Assembly: GCA_018060845.1 (NCBI GenBank)
Contig: JAGOVG010000001.1
Span: 152,740 to 216,739, forward strand
Reading direction: 5' to 3'
Source: Candidatus Woesebacteria bacterium
GTDB taxonomy: Bacteria > Patescibacteriota > Microgenomatia > UBA1400 > UBA12108
DNA length: 64,000 bases
Shown here: positions 6,251 to 64,000 of the stretch, piece by piece
How the letters are laid out: every line of letters begins with the position of its first letter
Position numbering within the stretch: the stretch's first letter is position 1
Program-made: the position numbers and the translations under genes
Notes under the pieces: model-generated
Database searches by the model: none
What the model saw: only the letters and a program-made list of their open reading frames with translations
What the model was told of the DNA's origin: nothing

Positions 6251-6470
6251 AGCCAAATTTTTGCAAGTAATAGAAAAGAAAGCTGTGGAGGAGAGAAAAA
6301 TCCTAGATACCGAATTGATGCCAAGCTGGGCTCGGGGGGTAGGAGAGTGGTTGGTGGTGAATCCGTGGCGGGTGATGGTACCTGTTTCGGGTATTTCGTA
6401 TATATTGTTTCGGACAGCGCTTGGCACTAATTTTCGGGAGTTGATATTGGGATTGTTTGGAGGATATTAA
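6240..6470 (+). CDS. Small single-TM protein, possible anti-sigma factor
   Basis: Its start overlaps the sigma stop (ATGcagagTGA). One TM (VMVPVSGISYILF). Role inferred from position only. Confidence 0.3.
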   Translation: MQSEAKFLQVIEKKAVEERKILDTELMPSWARGVGEWLVVNPWRVMVPVSGISYILFRTALGTNFRELILGLFGGY

Positions 6471-6473
6471 TTC

Positions 6474-6535
6474 GGACAACCGGAATACTCGGAGAGACAA
6501 GATGAATCAGAATAATCAGAAAATCAGAACAGGAG
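6474..6535. repeat. CGGACAACC-family repeat, copy A (head plus a 3x 9-bp AATCAGAA tail)
   Basis: tcggacaaccggaatactcggagagacaagatgaatcagaataatcagaaaatcagaa. Matches the copies at 40511, 43801 and 63231. Confidence 0.6.
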
Positions 6536-6843
6536 GAATATTGTTGCTTGGAGTGTGGGCGAGTTATGTATGGGGGACGACTCTTGCGGGACTGGCAATC
6601 CATCCGTACCAATCAATCCGACGTATAGTGTTGGGTAAGAAAATATTGTTGCCAGTTACACTTTCACCTCTGATAGGCCTGATTGTATTGTTTGTAGCCG
6701 GCCGGATGGGGAGCTATGTTTTTACTCTAGGTAATATTGGTAGGGAACTAACGGCGCTAGTTCTGGGATCGACTCTCATTGGACTATTGATGTGGCAAGG
6801 ACTACTACTTCTGTTGGTGCTGAGGTTTTGGCGGGCGCGTTAG
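6503..6843 (+). CDS. Multi-TM membrane protein co-transcribed with the ECF sigma
   Basis: Three to four predicted TM helices (GILLLGVWASYVWGTTLAGL, LLPVTLSPLIGLIVLFVAG, LTALVLGSTLIGLLMWQGLLLLLVL). ATG at 6503. The ORF also stays open upstream through the CGGACAACC repeat. Confidence 0.4.
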
Positions 6844-27901: not shown

Positions 27902-28587
27902 GTATGAGTGAGCTACTCGAGGTCTCTGACCTCACGGGAAGTATTGGCGGAAAAAGCGTTTTAAAGAATATCTCTTTTCGGCTTAAGTCAGGATCGCTTC
28001 TTGCGATAGTGGGAGCTAATGGAGGTGGCAAGAGCAGCTTGGCACAAGTGTTAATGGGTAACCCTGATTACCAGATAGATCGTGGCAGAGTTTTGATTGA
28101 CAGGCAAGAGCTACAAGGTTTGACGGTTGATGAGCGAGCGAGGCTCGGGCTATATGTCGCCTGGCAGAACCCTATATCGATCCCCGGAGTTACAGTTTTT
28201 TCTTTGTGTAAAGCTGCGTACGAAGCAAATGGCCACACGATCAAGAAGTTGGTCGAGTTTAAAAAGTTACTCGAAGAACTGGCAGTATCGGTCGGATTGA
28301 CCACTGAACATGTTGCTCGTTTTGTAAACGATGGGTTTAGTGGGGGAGAGAAAAAGAGGCTAGAACTACTACAGCTATTGCTACTTAAACCCAAGCTTGT
28401 TGTACTCGATGAGATTGATTCTGGCTTAGATCAGGACGGGCGAGCGCTTATCGTAAAAGTTGTTAGAGAGCTAAGAGATAGTGGCGCCGGGTTGATTGTG
28501 ATATCACACTACGAACAGTTAATCAGTGAGTTAAAACCCGATGTGGTTATGGAGATGGCGAATGGACAACTACAACCTAGGGTTTAA
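27898..28587 (+). CDS. sufC: Fe-S cluster assembly ATPase SufC
   Basis: LEVSDLTGSIGGKSVLKNISF...IVGANGGGKSSLAQVLMGNPDY, plus an ABC signature and Walker B. Confidence 0.85.
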   Translation: MSMSELLEVSDLTGSIGGKSVLKNISFRLKSGSLLAIVGANGGGKSSLAQVLMGNPDYQIDRGRVLIDRQELQGLTVDERARLGLYVAWQNPISIPGVTVFSLCKAAYEANGHTIKKLVEFKKLLEELAVSVGLTTEHVARFVNDGFSGGEKKRLELLQLLLLKPKLVVLDEIDSGLDQDGRALIVKVVRELRDSGAGLIVISHYEQLISELKPDVVMEMANGQLQPRV

Positions 28588-29941
28588 AAGTAATACAGAT
28601 AAGTATCAATACATAGCTCCTCGGGGATTGTCGAGAGATATCGTGCAAGAAATATCCAAAAGAAAAGATGAGCCTGCGTGGATGCTCGACATACGCCTTG
28701 CGGCTCTTGAGCAATTTGAAAAAATGCCAATCCCCACGTGGGGAGCGGATCTAAGTAAGATTAAGTGGGAAGAGATTCATTATTACCTAAAGAGTGTGGA
28801 TAGACCATATAAGAGCTGGGACCAGGTGCCCGACGCGGTTAGGCGAGTATTTGACGAGATAGGGGTCCCGGCAGCTGAGCGAGAATACCTCGCGGGTGTG
28901 GGCGGCCAATATGATAGTGAGATGATTTATCATTCGCTCAAAACTACACTCTCCAAAAAAGGAGTGATATTTTTGTCAATGGACGAGGGGTTAAAACAAT
29001 ATCCAGAGATAGTAAAAGCGCACTTTGGCAAGGTTGTGCCTTATGGCGACAATAAGCTGGCTGCGTTAAATACGGCTGTCTGGAGCGGAGGTAGTTTTGT
29101 TTACATTCCTGAAGGAGTTAAGGTGGATCTACCACTGCAAGCCTATTTTAGAATTAACGCTGAGAACGCGGGACAGTTTGAGCGGACGCTAATAGTGGCT
29201 GAAGAGAACTCTAGTGTGCATTATGTAGAGGGTTGCTCGGCACCTGCATATTCTAGCGCTAGCTTGCATGCTGCTGTTGTTGAGGTAGTAGTTGAGCCAA
29301 CAGCCTTGGTTAGATATACGACCGTCCAGAACTGGTATAAGAATGTCTATAACCTAGTAACCAAGCGGGCGATGGTATCAACTGATGCACGGATGGAGTG
29401 GGTAGACTGTAATCTGGGTAGTTGTGTGACGATGAAGTATCCATCGTGTATATTGGCGGGCCCTCGGGCACATGGTGAGATGCTATCGATTGCAGTTGCA
29501 GGATCCGGGCAGCAATTAGATGCAGGGGCTAAGATGATACATCTAGCACCCAACACAACGAGTCGAATAGTGTCTAAGTCGATTAGTCAAAATGGCGGGA
29601 GGAGTAGTTATCGTGGGCAGGTTAAGATAACGCCTGCTGCTGTCGGATCGCGGAGTAAAGTGATATGTGATGCGCTGATTATGGATGAGCAATCCAGGTC
29701 CGATACTTATCCCAATAATCAAGTGATGACGGGGGATGCAACACTTGAGCATGAGGCGTTTGTTTCGCGGGTGGGGGCAGAACAGCTAATGTATTTGATG
29801 GGCAGAGGGCTGAGTGAAGCTGAAGCACAGACGATGATTATTAGAGGATTTTTGGAACCCATTGTGTCGGAGCTACCTCTTGAATATGCGGTAGAACTTA
29901 ATCGGCTAGTGAAGATGCAGATGGAGGGGAGCGTTGGATAA
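28562..29941 (+). CDS. sufB: Fe-S cluster assembly protein SufB
   Basis: SufBD-family C-terminus (...LMYLMGRGLSEAEAQTMIIRGFLEPIV), about 460 aa. Confidence 0.85.
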   Translation: MDNYNLGFKSNTDKYQYIAPRGLSRDIVQEISKRKDEPAWMLDIRLAALEQFEKMPIPTWGADLSKIKWEEIHYYLKSVDRPYKSWDQVPDAVRRVFDEIGVPAAEREYLAGVGGQYDSEMIYHSLKTTLSKKGVIFLSMDEGLKQYPEIVKAHFGKVVPYGDNKLAALNTAVWSGGSFVYIPEGVKVDLPLQAYFRINAENAGQFERTLIVAEENSSVHYVEGCSAPAYSSASLHAAVVEVVVEPTALVRYTTVQNWYKNVYNLVTKRAMVSTDARMEWVDCNLGSCVTMKYPSCILAGPRAHGEMLSIAVAGSGQQLDAGAKMIHLAPNTTSRIVSKSISQNGGRSSYRGQVKITPAAVGSRSKVICDALIMDEQSRSDTYPNNQVMTGDATLEHEAFVSRVGAEQLMYLMGRGLSEAEAQTMIIRGFLEPIVSELPLEYAVELNRLVKMQMEGSVG

Positions 29942-29965
29942 TATGAGTTTACTCGCTAATTTGAG

Positions 29966-30083
29966 TTCGATGTACTTCACGCAAAAAAGCGGTCTACCTG
30001 AGTCTGGTGACTCAGCTACCTCGATCTCGTCCCGCCGCGGGCGGGACTGCGATAAATTTTTTGACTGTGAAATACATCTCCAC
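29966..30083. repeat. Intergenic repeat family C, copy 1: two hairpins then a T-tract, between sufB and the SufD-like gene
   Basis: gttcgatgtacttcacgcaaaaaagcggtct-[CTGAGTCtggtGACTCAG]-cctcgatctcg-[TCCCGCCgcgGGCGGGA]-ctgcgataaattttttgactgtgaaatacatctccac. Confidence 0.65.
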
Positions 30084-30106
30084 TCTTCATGTTGCGAGAG
30101 ATTGAT

Positions 30107-30574
30107 ATGAAAAAAATTCTCAAGAGATATGACCAGCCAGGTAAGTGGGAAGTAGTAATCCCATTTGATGAGCAGGGGATAGAGCTGGAGTGGACGGGAA
30201 TAGTTGATGCAAGACTGCCTGGTGAATACAATTTAACTGTAATTACCGAGCATAGTATGGCAAAGACAAGAGGTAGAGTAACAGTGAGAGCGGTGTGTGG
30301 AGAGGAGTCGACTGTCTCGCTTAACGGGATAATACGGATCGCCAAAGAGGCCCAAGAAACTGATGACTTTTTGGAGCTTAGAGTGTTAACGCTCGGATCA
30401 AAATCACGCGCAACAGTTGAGCCTGAGCTAGAAATAGAAGCTAATAATGTCCGTGCCAGTCATGCGGCGAGTGTAGGGAAGATTGACCCAGAGCAGCTCT
30501 TGTATTTGCAAAGTCGAGGACTAAGTAAAAATGATGCACAAAAGCAGATCATAGAGGGTTGGTTAGGCGTATAA
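30107..30574 (+). CDS. Short SufD-like protein (SufBD-family C-terminal domain only)
   Basis: ...ASHAASVGKIDPEQLLYLQSRGLSKNDAQKQIIEGWL. At about 155 aa it is far shorter than a canonical SufD. Confidence 0.6.
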   Translation: MKKILKRYDQPGKWEVVIPFDEQGIELEWTGIVDARLPGEYNLTVITEHSMAKTRGRVTVRAVCGEESTVSLNGIIRIAKEAQETDDFLELRVLTLGSKSRATVEPELEIEANNVRASHAASVGKIDPEQLLYLQSRGLSKNDAQKQIIEGWLGV

Positions 30575-33207: not shown

Positions 33208-33255
33208 AACTTGGTATTATACCTGGTTGTCATCTTGGTTTATGGTATTTTACTG

Positions 33256-33352
33256 GCGAGAATCTCGTGTCAGGTAAAAACTAAGTCGTTCGTAGAGCGC
33301 TGTCGTGGTACTCACTTGGTTAGTTTTTTACTTGATTGCTCGTACTTACGCT
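33256..33352. repeat. Intergenic repeat family B, copy 1 (about 97 bp), in the tsaD/HIT divergent region
   Basis: gcgagaatctcgtgtcaggtaaaaactaagtcgttcgtagagcgctgtcgtggtactcacttggttagttttttacttgattgctcgtacttacgctgcg. About 90% identical to 48178-48275. Confidence 0.65.
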
Positions 33353-33391
33353 GCGTAAAATCGCAACACCAATATGCTAATATCTACCTAT

Positions 33392-33763: not shown

Positions 33764-34848
33764 GTCCATTCAGGGTGTGAAACGGAATAGGTAATAGTAC
33801 GAGTAGAGACATCTTTTTCTTTTATTTCGATGTAAATTATTAAACAGATATCTTTGTATTCATTTAATAGATCATTTGCTTTGGCTGCCCACTCCATAGA
33901 GATAATATTTCCGGGTTTGAGGAGGGACGATATGTGGAGTGTCGACTCTAACTCAGCGCTTTCGGGCAGTCGCCAAGTATCCAGATGGTAGAACACTCCC
34001 TGGTATTTAGGCGTAGTGTATGGGTACTCGTGGAGGAGGGTATATGTAGGGGAGGCAACTGTCTCCTCGATACCAATAGCTTGGGCGATACCCTTGCTTA
34101 GCTGAGTTTTGCCGACTCCCAGATCACCTTGTAAGGCGAAGATGAGCGGATATTTGCGAGTAGCGTTGATATATTTTCCTGTCAGTTTTTTTCCTAATTC
34201 AATTGTCTCCTCAACACTCGTAGTAATAAGAGTGGTAGTTGGGGTATTGGGGAGAAAGATCTCACCCTGTCGCATGATCTCAGGCGCGTTGAGGGTGGTG
34301 TCGACTACCGTGCTGGTCGGGCGCTCCAAGAGAACCCCGGCGTCCAAAAAGAGATCTACCATCTCCTGTTTGGCAATGGTAGTATATTTTTGCCAATCTT
34401 TTAGAGAATAGGGTTCTTTTTTGCCACTCGTGTTAGCGCTAGTGGCAGTAATCGCGCTACCAAAAACCTTGATTAAGTCTAGGCAGTATTTATGATCAGG
34501 GATCCTGACGCCTAGGGTCTGGCTCGCTGATTCTAATCTCTGATCTACCACCTTTTTGGATTGAGAGATAACAGTGATAGGGCCAGGGAGAAACTGGGCA
34601 TAGAGATTATCGGCAATCGGATTGATTGATATGTATGTCTCTGCCATCGCTCTGTCTGAAACGGCAATGCTAATTTGGCGGTGCCTATCGCCTTTGTACT
34701 CTAGGAGTTTGGTAACAGCACTAGAGTTGGTTGCATCAACGGCGATGCCATAGCAGGTCTCGGTAGGGAAGATGACAAGGCCACCATCCCTCAATATTTT
34801 GATTGCGAGAGGTATTGAGTCGGGGTGGGATGTGGGGATTATTTGCAT
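33760..34848 (-). CDS. Fusion of TsaC/Sua5 (YrdC domain, N-terminal) and TsaE (P-loop ATPase, C-terminal)
   Basis: N-terminal ILRDGGLVIFPTETCYGIAVDATNSSAVTKLLEYKGDRHRQISIAV is a YrdC signature. C-terminal LQGDLGVGKTQLSKGIAQAIG...VASPTYTLLHEY...YHLDTWRL is a TsaE Walker A/SPT motif. Confidence 0.7.
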   Translation of the reverse strand: MQIIPTSHPDSIPLAIKILRDGGLVIFPTETCYGIAVDATNSSAVTKLLEYKGDRHRQISIAVSDRAMAETYISINPIADNLYAQFLPGPITVISQSKKVVDQRLESASQTLGVRIPDHKYCLDLIKVFGSAITATSANTSGKKEPYSLKDWQKYTTIAKQEMVDLFLDAGVLLERPTSTVVDTTLNAPEIMRQGEIFLPNTPTTTLITTSVEETIELGKKLTGKYINATRKYPLIFALQGDLGVGKTQLSKGIAQAIGIEETVASPTYTLLHEYPYTTPKYQGVFYHLDTWRLPESAELESTLHISSLLKPGNIISMEWAAKANDLLNEYKDICLIIYIEIKEKDVSTRTITYSVSHPEWT

Positions 34849-34874
34849 GAGAGTATTTTAGCAGGAGTATTTTT

Positions 34875-34930
34875 CTACTCGCTACCCGCTCTGCGATAAA
34901 TTTTTTGGTTGTGAGATACTCCTGCACCAC
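34875..34930. repeat. Intergenic repeat family C, copy 3 (3' half only)
   Basis: cgctacccgctctgcgataaattttttggttgtgagatactcctgcacc. Confidence 0.5.
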
Positions 34931-34943
34931 AGACTCGCTTTAA

Positions 34944-36173
34944 TTGCTCAGTCTGGGTTACTATATAGTCATGTGGAAGAGAGTTACAGCTTTTTTAATA
35001 ATATTATTTTTTGTGCTTTTGTCGGATGCTGTCTTATCTGATTGGGTGCCTGGATATCTTCAAAACACGTTAGGGTCACCGCTTGCGATGGGTCTGATGA
35101 TGGCATTATCGTCTGTGGTTGGGTTTGTGATGGACCTCATCTTCCCACAGCTACTGCGTAGTAGCGGGGTACGAAAACTCGCGGGTGGAGCGCTTCTTGG
35201 TGCCCTAATCTTTTTACTATCAATGCTATCTTCGACATGGTGGAGTTACTTAGCTATTTTGGCGATGGGGATGGCTGCTTGGGGGATCTATTACGAACTA
35301 GACTCTTTTATGACACAACAGTTTGTGGCAGGGGTCGCCCCAACGCATGAGAGATCCAGTGTGTGGGGAGTAGTGGGGGTGGTCCGCAACGCGGCGTATT
35401 TTTTGGGCCCGATTGTTGGGGGATATGTGGCATTTTATGGAGACCGTGCGGTAGTGCTGGGGGCGATGGGTGTACTAATACTCGCATACTTACTGTTCTT
35501 ATTTGTTCGATTGCCCAGAGAACATGAGATCAACCACCACGACAGCTCAATTAATCTTAAAGAAGAGATTAGTCACTGGTATAGACTTGGGATTAGAGTC
35601 TGGCCGATACTGCTCACTAGTTTTGTTGTCGGCTTAATTGATGCGACATTTTGGACTAGTGGGACAGTGCTCACTGATCGACTAGCGCAGGAGAGTAGTA
35701 TGGGTGGGATGTTTTTGTCTGCCTATATGTTCCCATTCCTCTTTGCTGGTCTTTTGGTTGCTAGGTGGGGAGTAGATGTGGGTAAGAAGAAGTGGGCAGC
35801 GAGGTTTTTGATGTTAGGTTCAATGTCACTCATGACTGTTGGTTTTGTCGACTCGGTATTCTTAATCCTGCTTGCGGTAGGACTCGCCGGGTTATTTATC
35901 GCGATGGCTTTCCCACTGATCGACTCGGTATATACAGACTTGGTAGCGAGAGCCCGCACAGGGCGAAAACACATTATTGGGATGTCATCTGCTACCTTTA
36001 GTCTGGCTTATGTGATAGGACCGATTATTTCTGGATTTGTGTCTGGGAGACTGGGGGAAGAGATGACATTTACGGCTGTTGGCGGACTAGTTACAATGGT
36101 CGCAATCTATTTGATGTGGGCGACTCCAAAAAAACTAAAATTACCCCAAGATGAGATACAATCATGGCAATGA
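34944..36173 (+). CDS. Multi-TM transporter-like membrane protein (MFS-like)
   Basis: About 12 hydrophobic helices, 409 aa. No strong signature motif. Confidence 0.5.
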   Translation: MLSLGYYIVMWKRVTAFLIILFFVLLSDAVLSDWVPGYLQNTLGSPLAMGLMMALSSVVGFVMDLIFPQLLRSSGVRKLAGGALLGALIFLLSMLSSTWWSYLAILAMGMAAWGIYYELDSFMTQQFVAGVAPTHERSSVWGVVGVVRNAAYFLGPIVGGYVAFYGDRAVVLGAMGVLILAYLLFLFVRLPREHEINHHDSSINLKEEISHWYRLGIRVWPILLTSFVVGLIDATFWTSGTVLTDRLAQESSMGGMFLSAYMFPFLFAGLLVARWGVDVGKKKWAARFLMLGSMSLMTVGFVDSVFLILLAVGLAGLFIAMAFPLIDSVYTDLVARARTGRKHIIGMSSATFSLAYVIGPIISGFVSGRLGEEMTFTAVGGLVTMVAIYLMWATPKKLKLPQDEIQSWQ

Positions 36174-40510: not shown

Positions 40511-40575
40511 TGGACAACCAGAATACTCAGCGAATCGGAATGTCAGAATACCGGAATATCAGATACAATTATCAC
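40511..40575. repeat. CGGACAACC-family repeat, copy B
   Basis: ttggacaaccagaatactcagcgaatcggaatgtcagaataccggaatatcagatac. Confidence 0.6.
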
Positions 40576-42780: not shown

Positions 42781-42797
42781 GGTTTATTCTCGCAGTG

Positions 42798-42920
42798 GTT
42801 CGATGTACTTCACGCAAAAAAGCGGTCTGTCTCCGCATGGTTGCGGAGCGACCTCGATCTCGGACTTTCCCGTCCTGCGATAAATTTTTTGACAGTGAAA
42901 TACACCTGCACCAATATTGC
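42798..42920. repeat. Intergenic repeat family C, copy 2 (two hairpins with compensatory changes, then a T-tract)
   Basis: gttcgatgtacttcacgcaaaaaagcggtct-[CTCCGCAtggtTGCGGAG]-cgacctcgatctcg-[GGACtttcccGTCC]-tgcgataaattttttgacagtgaaatacacctgcacc. Confidence 0.65.
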
Positions 42921-42995
42921 TCGACTACTAACTCAACAAATAATTCATGTCACAAGACTTTTAATTCAACCAACGAGTCATGTTAGACTGAATGT

Positions 42996-43862
42996 ATGTC
43001 TGATATCGATATTAAGCGAACAGCGAATGGACTCCGTGCTGACACCCTCAAAATGGTACATGCAGCTGGAGCTGGACACATAGCGGGACCACTATCCTCG
43101 GCAGAAATCATTGCAACGCTATATTTTACTGATTTAGTAGACCTGGCCAAAGACAAGATAGTACTTTCGTGTGGCCACTACGTACCAGTGCAGTATGCGG
43201 CACTGTCGCGATTGGGATACATACCAAGGGGTGAGCTATCGAGCTTTATGCAAGCAGGTAGTAGATTGCCTGGCCACCCAGAGCGAGGGATGACACCAGG
43301 GATTGAAGTGTCGGCAGGACCGCTGGGGCAGGGCGTCTCAGTCGCAGTTGGTATGGCCTTGGGGATGAAGATGCGGCATCAGAAATCAGAGTTAAATAAT
43401 GAAAGAGAGGGGAGGGTGTACTGCATCGTGTCTGACGGAGAGATCCAAGAAGGACAGGTGTGGGAAGCATTTAACCTGGCAGTACGCAGGCAGTTAGATA
43501 ACCTAATTTTTATCTTAGACAGAAATAGAATCCAGATAGGACATTTTATTTCTGAGGTAGCTACGTACGGCAATGTCGAGGGTAGGTTTGAAGCTTTTGG
43601 GCTGCATACCCTAACAGTTGATGGGAATGATGGAGTTAGCGTTTATAGAACAATTGCGAATGTAAAAGGTGTAAAAGGATCGCCTTTCATGATTGTTGCA
43701 AATACAGTGGCAGGCAAAGGGGTGTCTTTTATGGAGAATGATCCCAAGTGGCATGATAAAGCTATTACTGATCAAGAGCTATCTGATGCACTATGTGAAC
43801 TCGGACAACCGGAAAACTCGGAGCGCCAGAAAGTCGGAACATCAGATCATCTGAACCTCTGA
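42996..43862 (+). CDS. Transketolase, N-terminal (TPP-binding) subunit of a split enzyme
   Basis: AGAGHIAGPLSSAEIIATLYF and GHP...GSLGQG-type motifs. The C-terminal tail (PENSERQKVGTSDHLNL) is encoded by the CGGACAACC repeat. Confidence 0.8.
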   Translation: MSDIDIKRTANGLRADTLKMVHAAGAGHIAGPLSSAEIIATLYFTDLVDLAKDKIVLSCGHYVPVQYAALSRLGYIPRGELSSFMQAGSRLPGHPERGMTPGIEVSAGPLGQGVSVAVGMALGMKMRHQKSELNNEREGRVYCIVSDGEIQEGQVWEAFNLAVRRQLDNLIFILDRNRIQIGHFISEVATYGNVEGRFEAFGLHTLTVDGNDGVSVYRTIANVKGVKGSPFMIVANTVAGKGVSFMENDPKWHDKAITDQELSDALCELGQPENSERQKVGTSDHLNL

Positions 43863-45829: not shown

Positions 45830-47218
45830 ATGCAACCGGATATCATTGATCATGATAAAGATAGATCACGACAAGGCAAAGCAGAGTTTACAATAAATAA
45901 TTTGCCAGTTATTTATGAGTTCAATCAGTTAGATAGTGAGGAATTACATAGCAGTAGGAACTATACGGCTGTAGATGGAGTAGAAAATGGTTCGAGGATA
46001 TCTGATCTCAGTGTGAATGGTCATAAAGTTCCAATAGAGGGAGGTAACATTATTTTATCTTCTAATCTAGATCTCGCTATGCAAGTACCTGCTGACAATG
46101 CTTATGATCCACTCAGAGTACTTAAACAAAATCCAACCTGGGAAATACACCTTCCATGGGAAAGACTCGATTCACTTCTCAAGCTTGCCATCTTCTATCA
46201 TGAGCTTGGTCATCAACATGATCCAATAGAAGTAGAACAACCTGAGTTACCTGAGATAAATCATGATAATAATATTATTATAATCAATGGTCCTCAAGCG
46301 GCTGTAAACTCAATAATTTTCTCTGACATGGTAGTGCGTAGTGGTTTTGATGACTTAATACAAATCGTGCACACATTACACACTTTTTACAAGGACAGAT
46401 CTGAAGCTGAGTATAGGAGTGAAGCAAGAGCGAATGGTTATATGGTGCGGCTACTCAGAGAGCATTTTGGAAGTGGAAACGAAGACGTTGAGCGAGTAAT
46501 AAGCTCTGTCATTGGCGTTAATGTAATTCGGAACGTACTAAAAGGCAACCCATATAAGACAATTAGCATACCAGGCGGGAGACATATTGGAAAATGGGCG
46601 TTGGACAGGGGCTTAATGGCAATGGTTAATGAACTGGAAAATTCTAATACAATCATTCCTGAAATTAACCCAGATGGGTCTATACGCAGTTACATGAAGC
46701 CAATTGCTGAATTAAACTCAATAGAAGATCGGAAAATCGCACCAAACTTAAGGGAGCAACAACACTGGGCGTATTTAATAGGCAAAGACGACCCAGTATA
46801 TAACCCAGGTGTTAGTTTTACGCCTGATGACTCTAATATTGTGAACCTAGAAGACTATTTTCCCAAATCTGGAGATATTTTAACTATTTTTGACTCTGCT
46901 AACCGAGAGCTAGAATACATAATTGAGGATATGGGTTCACTCGATAATGAAGATCCATCGATAAAATTTAGGATTGTTTCTAATGACCCTTACCGTAGAG
47001 AGTATTCAATTACGTACGAAGCGTCAATTCATTCTTTTAACCTCAATGACTTCGATCCATACCCATATATAGTTACCCCAGACAACAAAATAACTAAGAT
47101 AAATATTCAACCTCGTCTTTACTCCCGAGATTTATTATCGAGAGCAAAGTTGCTCTTATCAGAGTTATATGAAGAAATGTTTCCTGAGGAAGACTATCTA
47201 GCTTCTTACATGGATTGA
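45830..47218 (+). CDS. Hypothetical protein with an HExxH motif (possible zinc metallopeptidase)
   Basis: FYHELGHQHDP. No other recognisable family signature. Confidence 0.4.
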   Translation: MQPDIIDHDKDRSRQGKAEFTINNLPVIYEFNQLDSEELHSSRNYTAVDGVENGSRISDLSVNGHKVPIEGGNIILSSNLDLAMQVPADNAYDPLRVLKQNPTWEIHLPWERLDSLLKLAIFYHELGHQHDPIEVEQPELPEINHDNNIIIINGPQAAVNSIIFSDMVVRSGFDDLIQIVHTLHTFYKDRSEAEYRSEARANGYMVRLLREHFGSGNEDVERVISSVIGVNVIRNVLKGNPYKTISIPGGRHIGKWALDRGLMAMVNELENSNTIIPEINPDGSIRSYMKPIAELNSIEDRKIAPNLREQQHWAYLIGKDDPVYNPGVSFTPDDSNIVNLEDYFPKSGDILTIFDSANRELEYIIEDMGSLDNEDPSIKFRIVSNDPYRREYSITYEASIHSFNLNDFDPYPYIVTPDNKITKINIQPRLYSRDLLSRAKLLLSELYEEMFPEEDYLASYMD

Positions 47219-48129: not shown

Positions 48130-48177
48130 TGATTACAGTATATCAGCTGCAGTACCAATTGGATTAACTGTTTGTTT

Positions 48178-48275
48178 GCGAGAATCTCGTATCAGGAAAA
48201 AACTAAGTCGTTCGTAGACCGCTCTCGCGATACTCACTTGGTTAGTTTTTTACTTGATTTCTCGTACTTACGCTG
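48178..48275. repeat. Intergenic repeat family B, copy 2, in the ldh/cmk divergent region
   Basis: gcgagaatctcgtatcaggaaaaaactaagtcgttcgtagaccgctctcgcgatactcacttggttagttttttacttgatttctcgtacttacgctgca. Confidence 0.65.
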
Positions 48276-48302
48276 CACAAACAATTAATCCAATGATTAC
48301 TC

Positions 48303-57395: not shown

Positions 57396-57581
57396 GATTT
57401 TGATCTAGAAGCGCTAGATTGACCAACAACTCTCGAAGTTCTAGAGTGAATGTAGGTTTAACAATTTAACGAGATATTGGATAAGGAAGTAGGGTGAAAT
57501 ACCCTCACTGTGCCGCAACGGTTAAAGTCCGGAACTTGCCAATATTCTCGCCTTATTACGCATCCTCCGCGCGAGAGGATG

Positions 57582-59004: not shown

Positions 59005-59463
59005 ATGCAATGTCCATACTGCCATCACGAGGATACTTCCGTCCTCGAGTCGCGTATCACAGCCGAAGGTGGTGCGATGAGGCGCAGACGTGAGTGTGTT
59101 AAGTGTAGTAAGCGTTTTACCACCTACGAGCGAGCTGAGGGAGTAGATATTAGAGTGGTCAAAAAGACAGGCAAGGTAGAGGACTTTGATAGAGAGAAGC
59201 TAAAAAGAGGGGTGATGAAGGCTACCTGGAAACGTCCAGTCTCTATGGAGCAGATCGAGGCAATGGTTGACGAGATAGAAAGGATCCTTAGGCGTAAGAC
59301 TACAACTGAAGTTAGGAGTTGGGAGGTAGGTAATCTTGTGATCAATAGATTAAAAAAGATTGATCCACTGGCATATTTACTATTTGCTAGTGTGTACAGA
59401 GAATTTGAGAACTTGTCTGATTTTGAAGAAGAAATTAAAAAACTAAAGGAACCTGCCCAATGA
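59005..59463 (+). CDS. nrdR: Transcriptional repressor NrdR (zinc ribbon plus ATP cone)
   Basis: MQCPYCHHEDTSVLESR...RRRECVKCSKRFTTYE. Confidence 0.85.
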   Translation: MQCPYCHHEDTSVLESRITAEGGAMRRRRECVKCSKRFTTYERAEGVDIRVVKKTGKVEDFDREKLKRGVMKATWKRPVSMEQIEAMVDEIERILRRKTTTEVRSWEVGNLVINRLKKIDPLAYLLFASVYREFENLSDFEEEIKKLKEPAQ

Positions 59464-61481
59464 AAATCACCAAACTGAACAAAAATGCTGCTGCTATTAT
59501 GGTAAATCGCTATAGCTTGAGGGATGACTCAGGGCACCCTGTTGAGTCACCTGCAGAGATTTTGATGCGTACTGCTAGAGTAGTCGCAGAAGCCGAGAAC
59601 AACTACAGAAGCAGTGGTGACACCTCGATGGAAGTGAGAGAAAAGTTTTTTGAGATGTTATACGAGATGAGGTTTGTGCCAAATGGTCGTACTATGGCTA
59701 ACGCAGGGACTAAGTATGGCCAGCTAGCAAACTGTTTTGTATTGCCGGTTGAAGATGATCTAGGCAAAGGAACTGACTCGATATTTTCTGTGCTTCGCAA
59801 GGCTATCCTAACACTGCAAACTGGCGGGGGAGTAGGTTTTTCTTTTGGGCGGATAAGGCCGAAAGAGGCATCAATTAGCACAACCAAAGGTAAAGCAACT
59901 GGAGCTGTATCTTTTATCAAGGTGTATGACACAGCTTTTTGGGTAATCGGCCAAGGTGGGGGTAGGCGTAGTGCGGCTATGGCTGTCCTACCTGTATGGC
60001 ATCCAGACATTTACGAATTTGTGAGATGTAAAGCGACAGAGGGACAGATTACCAACTTTAATATCTCAGTTGGGATAACAGATGAGTTTATGACGGCAGT
60101 TGCCAAGGATGAGGATTTTTCACTGCGCCACCCTGAAAATGGAGAACTATATCGAATGGTTCCGGCACGAGAATTATTTGCGGAGATTGTAAAGTTTGCT
60201 CATAAAAATGGCGAACCAGGTGTACTGTTTCTTGATGCTGCCAATAGAAGTAATCCTGTTCCACATCTATACAAACTCGAGGCAACAAACCCATGTGGAG
60301 AACAGTTCTTGGGTCCATACGAAAACTGCTGTTTGGGGAGTTTGAATCTTAGAGAACATGTAAAGTTAGCAAAAAATGATAAGTTAAAAGTTAAAAGTTA
60401 TATTGTGGATTGGGAAAAGTTAGCAGAGACGGTGGAATTATCGGTTAGATTTTTGGACAATGTGGTCGATGCTAATAAATATGTCTCGGCAGTACCAGAG
60501 CTCGAAGAAGCTGCCCACAAAGTGCGCCGCATTGGTTTGTCTGTGATGGGGTTATCAGACATGATGTATATGACCAATGTTCGATATGGTTGTGATAAAG
60601 GCCAGGAGCTGGCATCACAACTCATGGAGTTTATACGCTACCACTCGATGAGAGCTTCGATAGAACTCGCTCGGGTTAGAGGACCATTCCCTGGTATAAA
60701 CGGCAGTATTTACGATCCACAAAAAGTAACCTGGACAGTACCAAAGCCAAGAGTCGTTCATAAATCTGACTTTGGAAGACCAGAACTAGATTGGAAACTA
60801 ATTACAAAAGGATTAAAGTCTAACGGGATTCGAAATGGGGCTCAGACTACAGTTGCTCCAACCGGAAGCATTGCCACTATATCAGGACTTGAGGGGTATG
60901 GATGTGAGCCAGTATTTGCATTATCTTATATCCGCCACACGAGAGAGGGTGCAGAAAAAGAAGGCAAAGAATGGCGTGAAATGTACTACGAGAGTAGTCT
61001 TTTTGAATCTGCGATGAAGCGAGAGGGCATGAGTAAAAGCCAGAGGAACCAACTGTTTGCCGAAGTAAGAGACAATGGAGGGAGTTTGAAGGGAATAAAA
61101 GGTGTACCCAAACAGATTGCTGACACTTATGTAGTGTCATCTGACCTTAGTGTCGAAGAACACGTCCGGATGCAGGCCGTGATGCAGGCATGGATTGATA
61201 ACTCGATCAGTAAGACCATTAACTTCCCCAGTACTGCGACAGTTGACGAAGTGGCAGAGGCTTATCAACTAGGCTGGAAGCTGGGACTTAAGGGCATGAC
61301 AGTCTATGTAGAGGGGTCAAGAGAGCAGGTAGTACTAGAGAAGAAGAGTGCTCCATTTGAAACAAAAGAAGACAAGCAAGTAACATCTGAGGAGCTGTGT
61401 CCAGAATGTGGAACACCCATGCGGAGAGAAGAGGGGTGTTCTACTTGCCCTAGTTGTGCGTACTCTAAATGTGATAAATAG
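59460..61481 (+). CDS. nrdJ: Class II (adenosylcobalamin-dependent) ribonucleotide reductase, paralog a (no ATP cone)
   Basis: [44 protein letters not shown] and a C-terminal CPECG...CSTCPSC zinc ribbon. Confidence 0.8.
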
Positions 61482-61490
61482 GACATTTAT

Positions 61491-63380
61491 ATGACAAAAC
61501 CAAAAATAATTGAACCAAAACTGACGAAAAATGCGCAAGAAGTAGCTAAGAAGCGTTATTTGCGGACAGATATGAATGGAGTTGTTGTTGAGACTCCGGG
61601 AGAAATGTTGTGGCGAGTAGCCTATCACATGGCCAAACCAGAAGTTGCCTGGGGGACTAATGGCATAGTGATGGAGACAGCCGCTCGGTTTTATGAGCGA
61701 ATGGCGTCTCTCAAGATGGTATGTGCTGGCAAGGCAATGTTTGAGGCGGGGAACCCTGGGGGGACCGGACAATTATCTTCTTGTTTTGTGTTGCCAATAG
61801 AGGATTCGATCGGCAAGATTTTTAAGACTTTGGGTGATGCGGCGGTTGTACATAAAAATAACGGGGGTACTGGCTTTAACTTTAGCAAAATTAGGCCACA
61901 CGGGGATAAGGTAAAGAACGTGCCGGGTGCATCATCGGGACCGGTTGATTTTATCAAGGCGTACTCGGCAGCACTGGCTCAGATTTTGCAGGGCGCAAAA
62001 AGACAGGGCGCCAACATCGCAATTTTAAATGCGAACCACCCGGACATAGAGGAGTTTATTGATCTAAAAGCACAGGACGGGACGATTAAAAACTTTAATG
62101 TGTCGGTGGGTGTAACTGACTCATTTATGGAGGCAGTGGAAGGTGACAAATATTGGAATTTGGTAAACCCAAGAAATGGAGAGGTAGTTAAGAAAATTAA
62201 GGCAAAAACACTATTTAATAAGATTGCAGAAGCTGCGTGGAGGACGGGCGACCCAGGTCTTATGTTCTTGGACAATACAGAGCGTGGCAACACTGTTCCT
62301 AATTTTGGCAAACTAGATGCCACTAATCCGTGTGGGGAGATTGCACTGTTTCCTTATGAATCATGTAACTTAACTAGTATTGATTTGGCGAGACACCTTA
62401 AGAAGAGTAAGAAGGGGTATGAGATAGACTACAAAGAGCTTGGTGAGACAGTGCGACTAGGGGTTAGATTCCTCGACAACATGATAGAAGTGAATGCGTA
62501 CCCAGTCTCTGAGATTGAGGCAACGGTTAAAAATGGTAATCGGAGGATTGGACTAGGTGTCATGGGATTTGCGCATGTACTGTACAGGATGGGGATTCCT
62601 TACAACAGTAGCGACGCAGTAAAACTAGCCAAGGAAATGTCCAAATTTATATACGAGACTGCAGCTGAAATGTCATCTGAGCTAGCTGAAGTGAGAGGAA
62701 ACTTTAACAACTGGGATCTCTCAATCTACCCTGCAAAAGGACAGCCGATGCGCAACTGCGCGGTGACGATGATTGCGCCTACTGGGACGATTTCGATCCT
62801 AGCGGACACGAGTAGTGGAATAGAGCCAGTTTTTAGTTTGGTCACGAAGCGCAGAACTTTTTATGAAGATGATAAGTCTAACCACTCAACAAAAGAGCTT
62901 CTCATGGTTGACCCTGTTTTTGAAGAATATATTGGAAAGAGAAAAGATATTCTAGAACAAGTAGCAAATGGAGATTACTCAGGACTAACTCCTTTGGAGC
63001 GAAAGTTGTTTGTCACTACACACCAGATAGAACCCGAGTGGCATGTGAAGATACAAGCGGCGTGGCAGAAGTATTTTGATAACTCGATTAGCAAGACAGT
63101 TAATTTTGGACACGAGGCGAAGGTTGAAGATGTTAAGACTGTATATATGCAGGCATGGAAGCTGGGATGTAAGGGTGTCACGATTTATCGAGACGGGAGT
63201 AAGGGAGATCAAGTTTTGAGTACTGTAAAATCGGACAACCAGAATACTCAGAGTGTCGGTGACTCAGAACAATCTGAGAGCCAAAGTGAAGAGTTGGTAT
63301 GTCCTGAGTGTGGTGGGAAGCTACACAAACAAGATGGCTGCTCAAAGTGTATTGATTGTGGATATAGCGTATGCGGATAA
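61491..63380 (+). CDS. nrdJ: Class II ribonucleotide reductase, paralog b (no ATP cone)
   Basis: SSCFVLPIEDS, NPCGEIALFPYESCNLTSIDL and a C-terminal CPECGG...CSKCIDC. Its linker carries CGGACAACC repeat copy D. Confidence 0.8.
   Translation: MTKPKIIEPKLTKNAQEVAKKRYLRTDMNGVVVETPGEMLWRVAYHMAKPEVAWGTNGIVMETAARFYERMASLKMVCAGKAMFEAGNPGGTGQLSSCFVLPIEDSIGKIFKTLGDAAVVHKNNGGTGFNFSKIRPHGDKVKNVPGASSGPVDFIKAYSAALAQILQGAKRQGANIAILNANHPDIEEFIDLKAQDGTIKNFNVSVGVTDSFMEAVEGDKYWNLVNPRNGEVVKKIKAKTLFNKIAEAAWRTGDPGLMFLDNTERGNTVPNFGKLDATNPCGEIALFPYESCNLTSIDLARHLKKSKKGYEIDYKELGETVRLGVRFLDNMIEVNAYPVSEIEATVKNGNRRIGLGVMGFAHVLYRMGIPYNSSDAVKLAKEMSKFIYETAAEMSSELAEVRGNFNNWDLSIYPAKGQPMRNCAVTMIAPTGTISILADTSSGIEPVFSLVTKRRTFYEDDKSNHSTKELLMVDPVFEEYIGKRKDILEQVANGDYSGLTPLERKLFVTTHQIEPEWHVKIQAAWQKYFDNSISKTVNFGHEAKVEDVKTVYMQAWKLGCKGVTIYRDGSKGDQVLSTVKSDNQNTQSVGDSEQSESQSEELVCPECGGKLHKQDGCSKCIDCGYSVCG
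63231..63290. repeat. CGGACAACC-family repeat, copy D, in-frame inside nrdJ paralog b
   Basis: tcggacaaccagaatactcagagtgtcggtgactcagaacaatctgagagcc, encoding SDNQNTQSVGDSEQSES. Confidence 0.6.
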
Positions 63381-64000
63381 ATAAAATTCTTAAAAGAGAT
63401 GGTAGGGAAGTGGAGTTCTCGTTGCCAAAACTATCGGATGCGATCTGGAAGGCAGGGCGAGAAACTCACGAATTTGATGAAAAAGAAGCCAAGCGCCTAG
63501 CGGAAATAACAAGTGCTCTAGTTGAGAAGTCGCTAAAAGATAAAGAGATAGTAACGGTTGAAAAAGTGCAGGATTTTGTAGAGCAAGTCCTCATGGCGGC
63601 AGGACATTATCAGACAGCAAAGGCCTACATCCTGTATCGCGCAGCGAGGAGTGAGGAGAGGCGAGTAGAGCGGATTATTGGCGTTAAGGATGATCTTGAT
63701 CTTTCCCCTAACCAACTAAAAGTGTTGCGTAATCGATATTTACTAAAAGATGAAGATGGCAGAGTGATTGAGACGCCGTCGGAAATGTTTAGAAGAGTAG
63801 CCAAGAACCTGGCAATTGTTGAAAAGACAAATAAGAGAAAGAAAATAGAAGACGATTTTTATGAGGTAATGGCTCGTTTGGAGTTTCTGCCTGCCGGTAG
63901 AACTCTCAATAATGCGGGCACTCCCCAATCACAGCTGGCTAACTGTTTTGTATTGCCTGTTGAAGATTCGATGGAGGGGATATTTGACGCGGTTAAGTGG
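63371..64000 (+). CDS. nrdJ: Class II ribonucleotide reductase, paralog c, with an N-terminal ATP cone; partial, continues past the window end
   Basis: MRINKILKRDGREVEFSLPKLSDAIWKA is an ATP cone. ...[28 protein letters not shown]. Confidence 0.7.
   Translation, partial: MRINKILKRDGREVEFSLPKLSDAIWKAGRETHEFDEKEAKRLAEITSALVEKSLKDKEIVTVEKVQDFVEQVLMAAGHYQTAKAYILYRAARSEERRVERIIGVKDDLDLSPNQLKVLRNRYLLKDEDGRVIETPSEMFRRVAKNLAIVEKTNKRKKIEDDFYEVMARLEFLPAGRTLNNAGTPQSQLANCFVLPVEDSMEGIFDAVKW

What the first reader, a model, noticed from the sequence alone, without database searches (positions are those of the whole stretch)
29942..30088. Repeat family C: an about 120-bp element with two hairpins showing compensatory base changes, a T-tract and a conserved 3' box, present at three loci
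Copies at 29966-30083 (sufB to SufD-like), 42798-42920 (LOG to transketolase) and a 3' half at 34875-34930 share conserved single-stranded parts: gttcgatgtacttcacgcaaaaaagcggtct, cctcgatctcg, and ctgcgataaattttttgacNgtgaaatacaNctNcac. The two stem regions differ completely in sequence yet remain perfectly self-complementary. Hairpin 1 is CTGAGTC-tggt-GACTCAG in copy 1 and CTCCGCA-tggt-TGCGGAG in copy 2, with the tggt loop kept. Hairpin 2 is TCCCGCC-gcg-GGCGGGA in copy 1 and GGAC-tttccc-GTCC in copy 2. Covariation like this is the signature of a functional RNA structure, not of a protein-binding DNA site. All copies lie just upstream of plus-strand genes and contain a TTGACA box, so the element may be a combined terminator and leader/riboregulator module.
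Basis: seen in the sequence. Interest (0 to 1): 0.65.

Follow-up and report, generated by a model that had tools for sequence, protein, structure and literature searches.

The report
Small mobile Y-shaped palindromic repeat
This is a roughly 150-base selfish insertion element that hops between gene junctions in a group of ultra-small Woesebacteria and keeps a Y-shaped hairpin fold through matched base changes; it is a new family of an already known kind of repeat, not a dedicated gene regulator.

Summary
The repeat is real. There are two full copies (core 29963-30085 and 42796-42913) and one internally deleted relic (34865-34956), all on the + strand. Each copy is a long imperfect palindrome that folds into a three-way junction: a closing rod plus two hairpins.

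Across 10 distinct copies from the window and related metagenome contigs, 95% of pair cells are paired and 17 of 42 pairs show double compensatory changes. Almost none of the pairs are wobble pairs.

Comparison with close relatives shows the element is an insertion. The sufB|sufD, tsaCE|MFS, LOG|tkt and pfkB-downstream junctions are filled in some genomes and cleanly empty in others. The filled sufB|sufD genomes do not form one clade. Hairpin variants reassort among copies.

There is no Rfam, phage or plasmid match. The promoter-like box is complete only in copy 2. A strong terminator-like hairpin followed by U6 exists only on the opposite strand.

All seven insertion events lie on the G-rich strand, and one of them is antisense to both neighbouring genes.

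Verdict: a MITE-like mobile structured repeat, closest in kind to bcr1, ERIC and Correia elements, and a new family in Candidatus Woesebacteria. How it moves is unknown.

The parts
29942..30106 (+). Copy 1: the whole 165-bp spacer between the sufB stop (TAA, 29939-29941) and the sufD-like start (ATG, 30107). It is absent in relatives, where sufB and sufD overlap by ATGA. The part conserved across the family is about 29948-30100.
   Evidence: Filled versus empty alignment A3 and junction print-out.
29963..30085 (+). Copy 1 structured core, a three-way junction.
   Evidence: MFE fold -48.3 kcal/mol, z = -5.3. CM hit of 134.5 bits.
29963..29988 (+). Copy 1, 5' arm of the closing rod: outer stem GAGT, then GATGTA-C-TTCAC-GC, then A6.
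   Evidence: Consensus structure and pair counts.
29991..30020 (+). Copy 1 hairpin 1 (P2). The conserved base is GGT(C)/ACC. The variable tip is CTGAGTC-tggt-GACTCAG.
   Evidence: On the minus strand this hairpin is followed by GC and then U6.
30024..30053 (+). Copy 1 hairpin 2 (P3). The conserved base is ATC-T-CG / C-T-G-C-GAT. The variable tip is TCCCGCC-gcg-GGCGGGA.
30057..30085 (+). Copy 1, 3' arm of the closing rod: T6, GAC bulge, (T)GTGAA-A-TACATC, TCC, then outer stem ACTC. It contains TTGACT.
   Evidence: No promoter-like site was called here.
42783..42924 (+). Copy 2: a 142-bp insertion between the LOG stop (42780) and the ancestral spacer ahead of tkt-N (ATG, 42996). Boundaries are set against the empty site of L077. 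No target-site duplication is seen.
   Evidence: Alignment A6.
42796..42913 (+). Copy 2 structured core. The 5' arm is 42796-42821. P2 is 42824-42853, with tip CTCCGCA-tggt-TGCGGAG. P3 is 42857-42881, with tip GGAC-tttccc-GTCC. The 3' arm is 42885-42913.
   Evidence: Fold -39.6 kcal/mol, z = -3.3. CM hit of 139 bits. Promoter-like TTGACA-N18-AATATT at 42889-42918.
34865..34956 (+). Copy 3: a decayed relic between tsaC-tsaE (minus strand, start at 34848) and MFS (ATG, 34971). It has lost the 5' extension, the A6 run, hairpin 1 and the central box. It keeps hairpin 2, the 3' box and the 3' extension.
   Evidence: Alignment A4 against the full copy in L008 and the empty site in L020. CM hit of only 13.4 bits.
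28562..29941 (+). sufB (459 aa), the gene upstream of copy 1.
   Evidence: Pfam SUFBD_core. 100% match to P0001.
30107..30574 (+). sufD-like gene (155 aa), downstream of copy 1. The start is set by homology and not at the ORF-finder's ATG at 30089.

Best explanation
Family C is a non-autonomous mobile insertion element of about 140-165 bp. It is found in a clade of Candidatus Woesebacteria (Microgenomates, CPR).

Anatomy. Each copy is a long imperfect palindrome. A closing rod is made by the 5' and 3' boxes. It ends in an invariant A6:T6 helix that opens into a three-way junction carrying two hairpins. The bases next to the junction are nearly invariant: AAAAAAG-GTC, CCTCGATCTCG and CTGCGATAAATTTTTTG. 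The hairpin tips, the middle of the rod and the outermost stem change freely but stay Watson-Crick paired. Short extensions that are only partly conserved flank the core: 5' ..TTACTCGCT.. and 3' ..CTCGC..ATTAAT.

Shown. The element is inserted at gene junctions that are cleanly empty in close relatives. It can decay, as in copy 3. Its hairpin modules reassort among copies.

Inferred.
(i) It is moved in trans by an enzyme that is not encoded nearby and that recognises the conserved junction of a folded single strand. This would explain the Watson-Crick-only covariation, the lack of a clear target duplication and the uniform orientation on the G-rich (leading) strand. I give this sub-mechanism about 0.25.
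(ii) Where it is transcribed it makes a rod of about 24 bp that could be cut by RNase III.
(iii) Only the minus-strand reading carries a strong hairpin followed by U6, which looks like an intrinsic terminator. Inside operons, therefore, only the observed orientation would be tolerated.
(iv) Pairing is kept in place because an unfolded A/U-rich insert would harm the host mRNA, or because copies convert one another.
For: Repeat and structure.
- Searches show the repeat and its fold.
- The RNAalifold consensus has 42 pairs.
- 95% of pair cells are paired, 17 pairs have changes on both sides, and 0 of 500 shuffles reach the observed score.

Insertion polymorphism.
- sufB|sufD is an ATGA overlap with no spacer in L019, L008, L020 and L023. 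It carries 150-165 extra bases in the window, in L024/25/26 and in L021/22.
- The SufB tree places the filled window next to the empty L019, and the filled L021/L024 clade next to the empty L020.
- tsaCE|MFS is empty in L020, full in L008 and L021, and a relic in the window.
- LOG|tkt is filled in the window and empty in L077 and L074. In L075 it is occupied by a different repeat.
- L075, whose PfkB is 98% identical to the window's, has a copy after pfkB where the window has none.

Reassortment.
- Hairpin-1 tip CTCCGCA-tggt is identical in window copy 2 and in L024.
- Hairpin-1 types A and D each occur with hairpin-2 types c and d.

Orientation.
- The element lies on the G-rich strand at all 6 sites and 7 events.
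- At L018/L003 it is antisense to both Pfam-validated neighbouring genes.

No known RNA or replicon.
- Rfam gives nothing.
- No copies occur in viral contigs, phages or plasmids.

Terminator asymmetry.

Literature analogue: bcr1 is about 155 bp, has a cruciform-like fold with two stem-loops, shows compensatory changes and has a non-conserved distribution (PMC3184786).
Against: - No transposase or other mobilising gene appears in the roughly 170 kb of annotated related loci.
- No longer autonomous element with the same ends was found.
- The ends are not sharply defined. A target-site duplication is absent at LOG|tkt. At sufB|sufD it is only arguable, as a duplicated ATGA(A).
- Copy number is low: 3 in 64 kb here, and 0 in several 20-kb stretches of relatives.
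- Same-site copies in genomes about 85-90% identical in SufB keep the central core about 89% identical, with 6 compensated against 3 uncompensated stem changes. That looks like purifying selection in place, which a purely selfish element does not predict unless gene conversion or repeated re-insertion is common.
- The 7-of-7 orientation result is not significant if orientation simply follows the roughly 73% of genes on the leading strand.
Confidence: 0.6

Rival explanations
1. Host-functional cis-acting RNA. Transcribed on the + strand within mRNAs, the three-way junction would act as a terminator/attenuator together with a leader or promoter for the downstream gene.
For: - The covariation is strong.
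- The core is conserved between same-site copies.
- Copy 2 has TTGACA-N18-AATATT.
- At four of five sites with a readable upstream gene, the + form is in the sense direction.
Against: - The same junctions are empty in close relatives, so the neighbouring genes do not need the element.
- Copy 3 is decaying.
- One locus is antisense to both neighbours.
- The -10 element is not conserved (and the sequences).
- The + strand hairpin before the U6 run is weak (-3 to -7 kcal/mol in 9 of 10 copies) and separated from it by AAA.
- G.U pairs are almost absent on the + strand (3 of 419 cells).
- There is no Rfam family.
Confidence: 0.13
2. A family of small RNA genes on the minus strand. Transcription would start just outside the rod, where a -10-like ATTAAT/TATTAAT/TAATAC motif lies 8-14 nt upstream in most copies. 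It would run through the rod arm and hairpin 2', and end at hairpin 1' plus U6. The product would be an RNA of about 100 nt that is antisense to the operon transcript.
For: - The minus strand folds better in 10 of 10 copies.
- The minus strand has a hairpin of -12 to -20 kcal/mol followed by GC and then U6.
- An A/T-rich hexamer sits in the 3' extension of most copies (read by eye).
- Conserved C.A and A.C mismatches on the + strand become G.U on the minus strand.
Against: - Termination at U6 would leave out the second rod arm, yet both arms covary strongly.
- No conserved -35 element is present.
- The rival does not explain insertion polymorphism, relics or reassortment.
- The promoter motif was found by eye and was not tested against chance.
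Confidence: 0.1
3. A classical cut-and-paste MITE. The rod arms would be terminal inverted repeats bound as double-stranded DNA by a transposase. The apparent covariation in the rod would reflect both ends tracking the same transposase specificity.
For: - The arms are long inverted repeats.
- Rod subfamilies exist: GATGTA, GGAGTA and GACGCA types.
- Presence and absence vary between relatives.
- A possible duplicated ATGA(A) flanks the sufB|sufD insertions.
Against: - The outermost pairs are the most variable part. The conserved bases are internal, next to the junction.
- The two internal hairpins covary independently and differ between copies within one genome.
- No duplication is seen at LOG|tkt.
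- No transposase is found.
- The orientation bias has no explanation under a double-stranded DNA mechanism.
Confidence: 0.12

Closest known systems
bcr1 repeat of the Bacillus cereus group
   Same: About 155 bp and intergenic, with a distribution that is not conserved between close strains. Its predicted fold is cruciform-like with two independent stem-loops, and compensatory changes keep the pairing (Delihas 2011, PMC3184786, read).
   Different: bcr1 is flanked by 5-bp direct repeats and is known to be transcribed. Here no clear duplication is seen and transcription is untested. The host phylum is different. Sequence similarity was not tested because no bcr1 sequence was at hand.
ERIC/IRU (enterobacteria) and Correia/NEMIS (Neisseria) elements
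   Same: These are 100-170 bp imperfect palindromes inserted between genes, including inside operons. They are co-transcribed, and their long stems can be RNase targets or carry promoter or terminator pieces (own knowledge; general description in PMC3184786 and PMC2229807).
   Different: Correia elements have defined 26-bp terminal inverted repeats and a TA duplication. They occur in hundreds of copies and in both orientations. Family C has a variable outer stem, a conserved three-way-junction core, a low copy number and a single orientation relative to GC skew.
IS200/IS605-derived palindrome-associated elements (PATEs) and single-strand 'peel and paste' transposition
   Same: No target duplication, clean empty sites, folded single-strand hairpins as the recognised feature, and orientation tied to the replication direction (own knowledge of IS608 biology).
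   Different: No conserved tetranucleotide or pentanucleotide target lies 5' of the insertions. The two hairpins do not resemble each other. No Y1 transposase was seen. The better-folding strand is the C-rich one, which is the opposite of the simple prediction.
Integron attC sites (for example the 123-126 bp Vibrio cholerae repeats)
   Same: Similar length. The sequence is variable while the folded single-strand structure is conserved, and the orientation is strand-specific.
   Different: No RYYYAAC / GTTRRRY boxes, no cassette array and no intI gene. The flanking genes are core housekeeping genes.
Bidirectional intrinsic terminators
   Same: An A-tract and a T-tract flank G+C-rich hairpins whose sequence is free but whose pairing is kept.
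   Different: There are two hairpins enclosed by a long conserved rod. The flanks are identical at unrelated loci. The element occurs between divergent genes and inside operons. The + direction has a 3-nt gap and a weak stem.

Membership tests
MITE (classical non-autonomous DNA transposon) | Terminal inverted repeats at the very ends | tested here: inconclusive
   Long inverted arms exist. However, the outermost 4-6 bp vary and covary, and 12-25 nt extensions that are not inverted lie outside them.
MITE (classical non-autonomous DNA transposon) | Fixed-length target-site duplication | tested here: inconclusive
   None is seen at LOG|tkt against L077, nor at tsaCE|MFS against L020. A duplicated ATGA(A) is possible at sufB|sufD, but selection for a stop and a start codon could also explain it.
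MITE (classical non-autonomous DNA transposon) | Presence/absence at identical sites in related genomes; no coding capacity | tested here: met
   Four sites have both filled and empty states. The SufB tree shows that the filled genomes do not form a clade. The element contains no ORF.
MITE (classical non-autonomous DNA transposon) | A related autonomous IS with the same ends | not testable with these tools
   No half-sites or longer elements occur in the roughly 400 kb held.
IS200/IS605-type single-strand element (PATE) | Insertion 3' of a conserved short target, with no duplication | tested here: not met
   The left flanks share no common tetranucleotide or pentanucleotide. The absence of a duplication is compatible.
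IS200/IS605-type single-strand element (PATE) | Orientation tied to replication direction | tested here: met
   All 7 events lie on the G-rich strand, including one antisense to its neighbouring genes. The sample is small. The leading-strand assignment is inferred from skew only.
IS200/IS605-type single-strand element (PATE) | Y1 (HUH) transposase in the genome | not testable with these tools
   None appears in the annotated loci. The whole genome was not available.
Integron attC | R''/R' boxes (RYYYAAC...GTTRRRY) and cassette context with intI | tested here: not met
   The boxes are absent from the sequences. The neighbouring genes are sufB, sufD, tkt and rpoD.
Any Rfam RNA family | Covariance-model score at or near the gathering threshold | tested here: not met
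   The gathering scan of the window gives only tmRNA, tRNAs and AdoCbl-II. The E<=10 scan of 29900-30130 gives only a 12-bit CRISPR-DR chance hit.
Intrinsic terminator | G+C-rich hairpin followed within 0-2 nt by a U-run, at the 3' end of a transcription unit | tested here: inconclusive
   The minus strand has a -12 to -20 kcal/mol hairpin followed by GC and U6. The + strand has a weak hairpin followed by AAA and U6. The simple scan calls nothing convincing. The positions include divergent and intra-operon spacers.
bcr1-like structured repeat | About 150 bp; closing stem plus two stem-loops with compensatory changes; non-conserved distribution | tested here: met
   This is a likeness in kind. 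Sequence homology to bcr1 was not tested.

The most novel reading that the evidence does not exclude
Family C, and perhaps the neighbouring 'D6' family, could be a so far undescribed class of structure-defined mobile element in CPR bacteria. In this reading it is recognised and moved as a folded single strand, DNA or RNA, through its invariant three-way-junction core. The enzyme is unidentified and could be a HUH or Xer-like protein, or the core itself could be catalytic. The hairpin tips would be free to vary and to reassort. This would account for the Watson-Crick-only covariation, the clean empty sites, the repeated use of the same gene junctions and the strict orientation relative to replication.
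Probability: 0.18. Interest if true: 0.75.

Novelty: new member of a known kind. Interest (0 to 1): 0.4.

Why it matters
CPR bacteria have tiny, tightly packed genomes and are usually described as poor in mobile DNA. This work shows at least one family, and probably two, of small structured insertion elements that land exactly at gene junctions. One such junction is the 4-base overlap of the essential sufB and sufD genes. The elements differ between near-identical strains. That makes them useful as strain markers. They may also cause assembly breaks: one contig ends inside a copy. They are a caution for RNA-motif hunters, because strong covariation here comes from a mobile palindrome and not from a dedicated riboregulator. 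If the orientation rule and the conserved junction reflect single-strand mobilisation, the family would be a route to finding the enzyme responsible.

Tried and rejected
- **Rfam.** The gathering scan of the whole window and the E<=10 scan of the locus gave nothing relevant.
- **Genome-collection scan with the 3' box.** It returned only 3 true copies in two MAGs and one chance hit.
- **Metagenome scan.** It returned 3 true copies among 14 hits.
- **Viral-contig scans.** Two scans followed by a CM search of the 47 loci returned found no copies.
- **PLSDB plasmids and INPHARED phages.** blastn found no match.
- **Exact look-up of the ORF-finder's SufB.** This failed because the true start is 7 codons later.
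- **Literature search for CPR/Patescibacteria repeats or MITEs.** Nothing specific was found.
- **Promoter and terminator consensus scans.** There is no conserved promoter and no canonical + strand terminator.
- **462-aa ORF beside the pfkB site as a possible mobilising enzyme.** It has no Pfam hit and carries an HExxH motif, so it is not transposase-like.
- **Considered by eye and rejected:**
  - Hammerhead or twister-type junction cores: no core motifs are present.
  - tRNA T-loop: GGTTCGAT is only a partial likeness.
  - DnaA boxes in the rod: lost in the rod variants.
  - A rolling-circle nick site CTTGATA in the loop of L002: not conserved in other copies.
  - attC boxes: absent.
- **Extending the sample.** A further 74 kb around the RNR genes of the window genome and two relatives gave no new copy.

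Full report
**1. The observation**

- The 3' box occurs three times with at most 2 mismatches, against 0.02 expected by chance. The 31-nt 5' box occurs twice exactly, against 0 expected.
- A repeat search recovers the same families (D7 and D12).
- A covariance-model search of the whole window with filters off finds no other copy.

GATGTACTTCAC-GC-AAAAAA at the 5' side pairs with TTTTTT-GAC-GTGAAATACATC at the 3' side, and 4-6 more bases pair outside that. Each copy is therefore a long imperfect palindrome that folds into a three-way junction made of a closing rod, hairpin 1 and hairpin 2. The folding energies are -48.3 and -39.6 kcal/mol on the + strand (z = -5.3 and -3.3). On the minus strand they are -56.4 and -49.2 kcal/mol.

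The third copy is not a simple 3' half. It is a relic with internal deletions.

**2. More copies, and the organism**

An exact-pattern scan of one genome per species found three true copies in two MAGs, one of which is labelled Candidatus Woesebacteria. A metagenome scan found three more.

An RNR protein of the window is 100% identical to a protein named as Candidatus Woesebacteria. The window lies on contig JAHZTO010000034.1 of GCA_020049755.1.

I used SufB, transketolase and RNR homologues to fetch syntenic contigs of relatives. I then searched them with a covariance model built from seven copies. Together this gave 11 distinct copies at six genomic sites.

No copy was found in viral contigs, phages or plasmids. 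No Rfam family matches.

**3. Structure and covariation**

The RNAalifold consensus has 42 pairs. Pair counts on 10 distinct copies are as follows.
- 95.0% of pair cells are standard pairs, against 39-46% when partners are slid by 1-3 columns.
- 17 pairs and 46 cells have changes on both sides.
- 0 of 500 shuffles reach the observed pairing or covariation score.

Covariation affects the hairpin tips, the middle of the rod (GATGTA/TACATC, GGAGTA/TACTCC, GACGCA/CGCGTC) and the outermost stem. The A6:T6 helix and the bases next to the junction never vary.

Nearly all pairs are Watson-Crick. Of 419 cells, 395 are Watson-Crick, 3 are G.T on the + strand, and 8 are A.C, which would be G.U on the minus strand. 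The minus strand folds more stably in 10 of 10 copies, with RNA and with DNA parameters.

**4. It is an insertion**

*sufB|sufD.* In L019, L008, L020 and L023, sufB and the short sufD-like gene overlap by ATGA with no spacer. In the window, in L024/25/26 and in L021/22, 150-165 bases containing the element sit between them. On a SufB tree the filled window is sister to the empty L019. The filled L021/L024 clade is sister to the empty L020. This implies at least two gains at the same junction, or one gain followed by several clean losses.

*tsaCE|MFS.* This junction is a 32-bp spacer in L020, carries full copies in L008 and L021, and carries the relic in the window.

*LOG|tkt.* This junction is filled in the window and empty in L077 and L074. 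In L075, a near-identical relative, it holds a different repeat family.

*pfkB downstream.* L075 has a copy right after pfkB, cut by the contig end, where the window has none.

*Boundaries.* Against L077, copy 2 is a 142-bp insert with no target duplication. At sufB|sufD the ATGA(A) appears on both sides. That could be a duplication, or it could be the only viable outcome. Similarity among non-orthologous copies extends 12-16 nt 5' of the core (..TTACTCGCT..) and 10-25 nt 3' of it (..CTCGC..ATTAAT).

**5. Reassortment and constraint in place**

Hairpin tips behave like alleles shared across sites and genomes.
- CTCCGCA-tggt is identical in window copy 2 and in L024.
- CTGAGTC occurs in copy 1, L003 and L018.
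- CCCCGCC occurs in L008 and L021.
- GGCCtacacGGCC occurs in L018 and L075.
- GAGCtacccGCTC occurs in L003, L008 and copy 3.

Hairpin-1 types A and D each occur with hairpin-2 types c and d. This points to exchange between copies.

Same-site pairs show more compensated than uncompensated stem changes when they are close: L003/L018 show 2 against 0, and L008/L021 show 6 against 3. The pair L024/L021a shows 9 against 11. Pairing is therefore maintained in place. This could come from selection on the transcript or from conversion between copies.

**6. Context and orientation**

The contexts are varied.
- In-operon and in sense: sufB|sufD and LOG|tkt.
- Between divergent genes: tsaCE|MFS.
- Between convergent genes: rpoD|FemAB-like, and pfkB|ldh in relatives.
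- Between two co-directional genes but antisense to both: SAM_HAT|DUF5673.

The skew is +0.17 to +0.28 where the element is on the + strand. It is -0.11 to -0.19 where the element is on the minus strand.

Seven of seven events on one strand is unlikely if orientation were random (about 0.016, two-sided). It is not unlikely if orientation merely follows genes, because about 73% of genes are on that strand. The one discriminating locus follows skew and not genes.

**7. Promoter and terminator**

Only copy 2 has a promoter-like match, and its -10 element lies outside the conserved part. On the + strand, hairpin 2 is weak in 9 of 10 copies (-3 to -7 kcal/mol) and is separated from U6 by AAA. On the minus strand, hairpin 1' (-12 to -20 kcal/mol) is followed by GC and then U6, which looks like an intrinsic terminator. 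This asymmetry offers a selective reason why operon insertions are seen only in the + orientation. That reason is an inference.

**8. Interpretation**

The evidence fits a non-autonomous mobile structured repeat. The closest described kind is the bcr1 element of the Bacillus cereus group. bcr1 is about 155 bp, has a cruciform-like fold with two stem-loops, shows compensatory changes and has a non-conserved distribution (PMC3184786). ERIC and Correia elements are also similar in kind.

The family does not meet the classical MITE definition cleanly, because no fixed ends or target duplication are seen. It also fails the target-sequence test for IS200/IS605-type elements and the box test for attC sites.

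How it moves is unknown. A single-strand, structure-recognising mechanism is my preferred guess (about 0.25). It would explain the Watson-Crick-only covariation, the clean empty sites and the orientation rule. Against it, the better-folding strand is the C-rich one, and no enzyme was found.

The claim of compensatory change is supported.

**9. Verdict**

This is a real and well-defined new family of a known kind of element, found in an under-studied phylum. Interest is moderate (0.4). There is a minority chance (about 0.18) that it represents a new mobilisation mechanism.

Noticed in passing
window 33249-33359 and 48171-48281; L075 3737-3850; also L077 418-513, L023 14625-14720: A second small repeat family ('D6', about 110-130 bp, 89% identical between the two window copies). 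It has its own hairpin closed by an A-run and a T-run. In L075 it occupies the very LOG|tkt spacer where the window has family C. All copies seen are on the G-rich strand.
   Followed up: partly
window 6464-6537, 40512-40548, 43793-43839, 63223-63269: A 36-37 nt repeat (GGACAACCAGAATACTCAG...) recurs at or near gene ends, for example the 3' end of tkt-N and of the RNR gene 61491-63380. It may encode a shared C-terminal tail or be another inserted motif.
   Followed up: no
window 45830-47218 (+): A 462-aa ORF with an HExxH motif and no Pfam hit is inserted exactly between pfkB and ldh. It is absent at this position in relatives L074 and L077. In L075 the same junction carries a family C copy.
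   Followed up: partly
window 57474-57545 and 59460-64000; L078, L082: An AdoCbl-II riboswitch precedes nrdR and three tandem class II ribonucleotide reductase paralogues. In relative L082 the first paralogue carries a LAGLIDADG intein.
   Followed up: no
window 30089 vs 30107; 34944 vs 34971; 28541 vs 28562: Mechanical ORF starts are too far upstream for sufD-like, MFS and sufB, because the inserted element supplies in-frame ATG or TTG codons. Homology puts the true starts later.
   Followed up: yes
L075 6734-6837 (contig end): The contig of a near-identical relative ends inside a family C copy. This suggests the repeat breaks metagenome assemblies.
   Followed up: no
L023 1124-4603: A relative carries a rolling-circle Rep-like gene (REP_ORF2-G2P), a serine recombinase and a LAGLIDADG-like ORF upstream of the suf region. 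This looks like an integrated element. No family C copy lies nearby.
   Followed up: no
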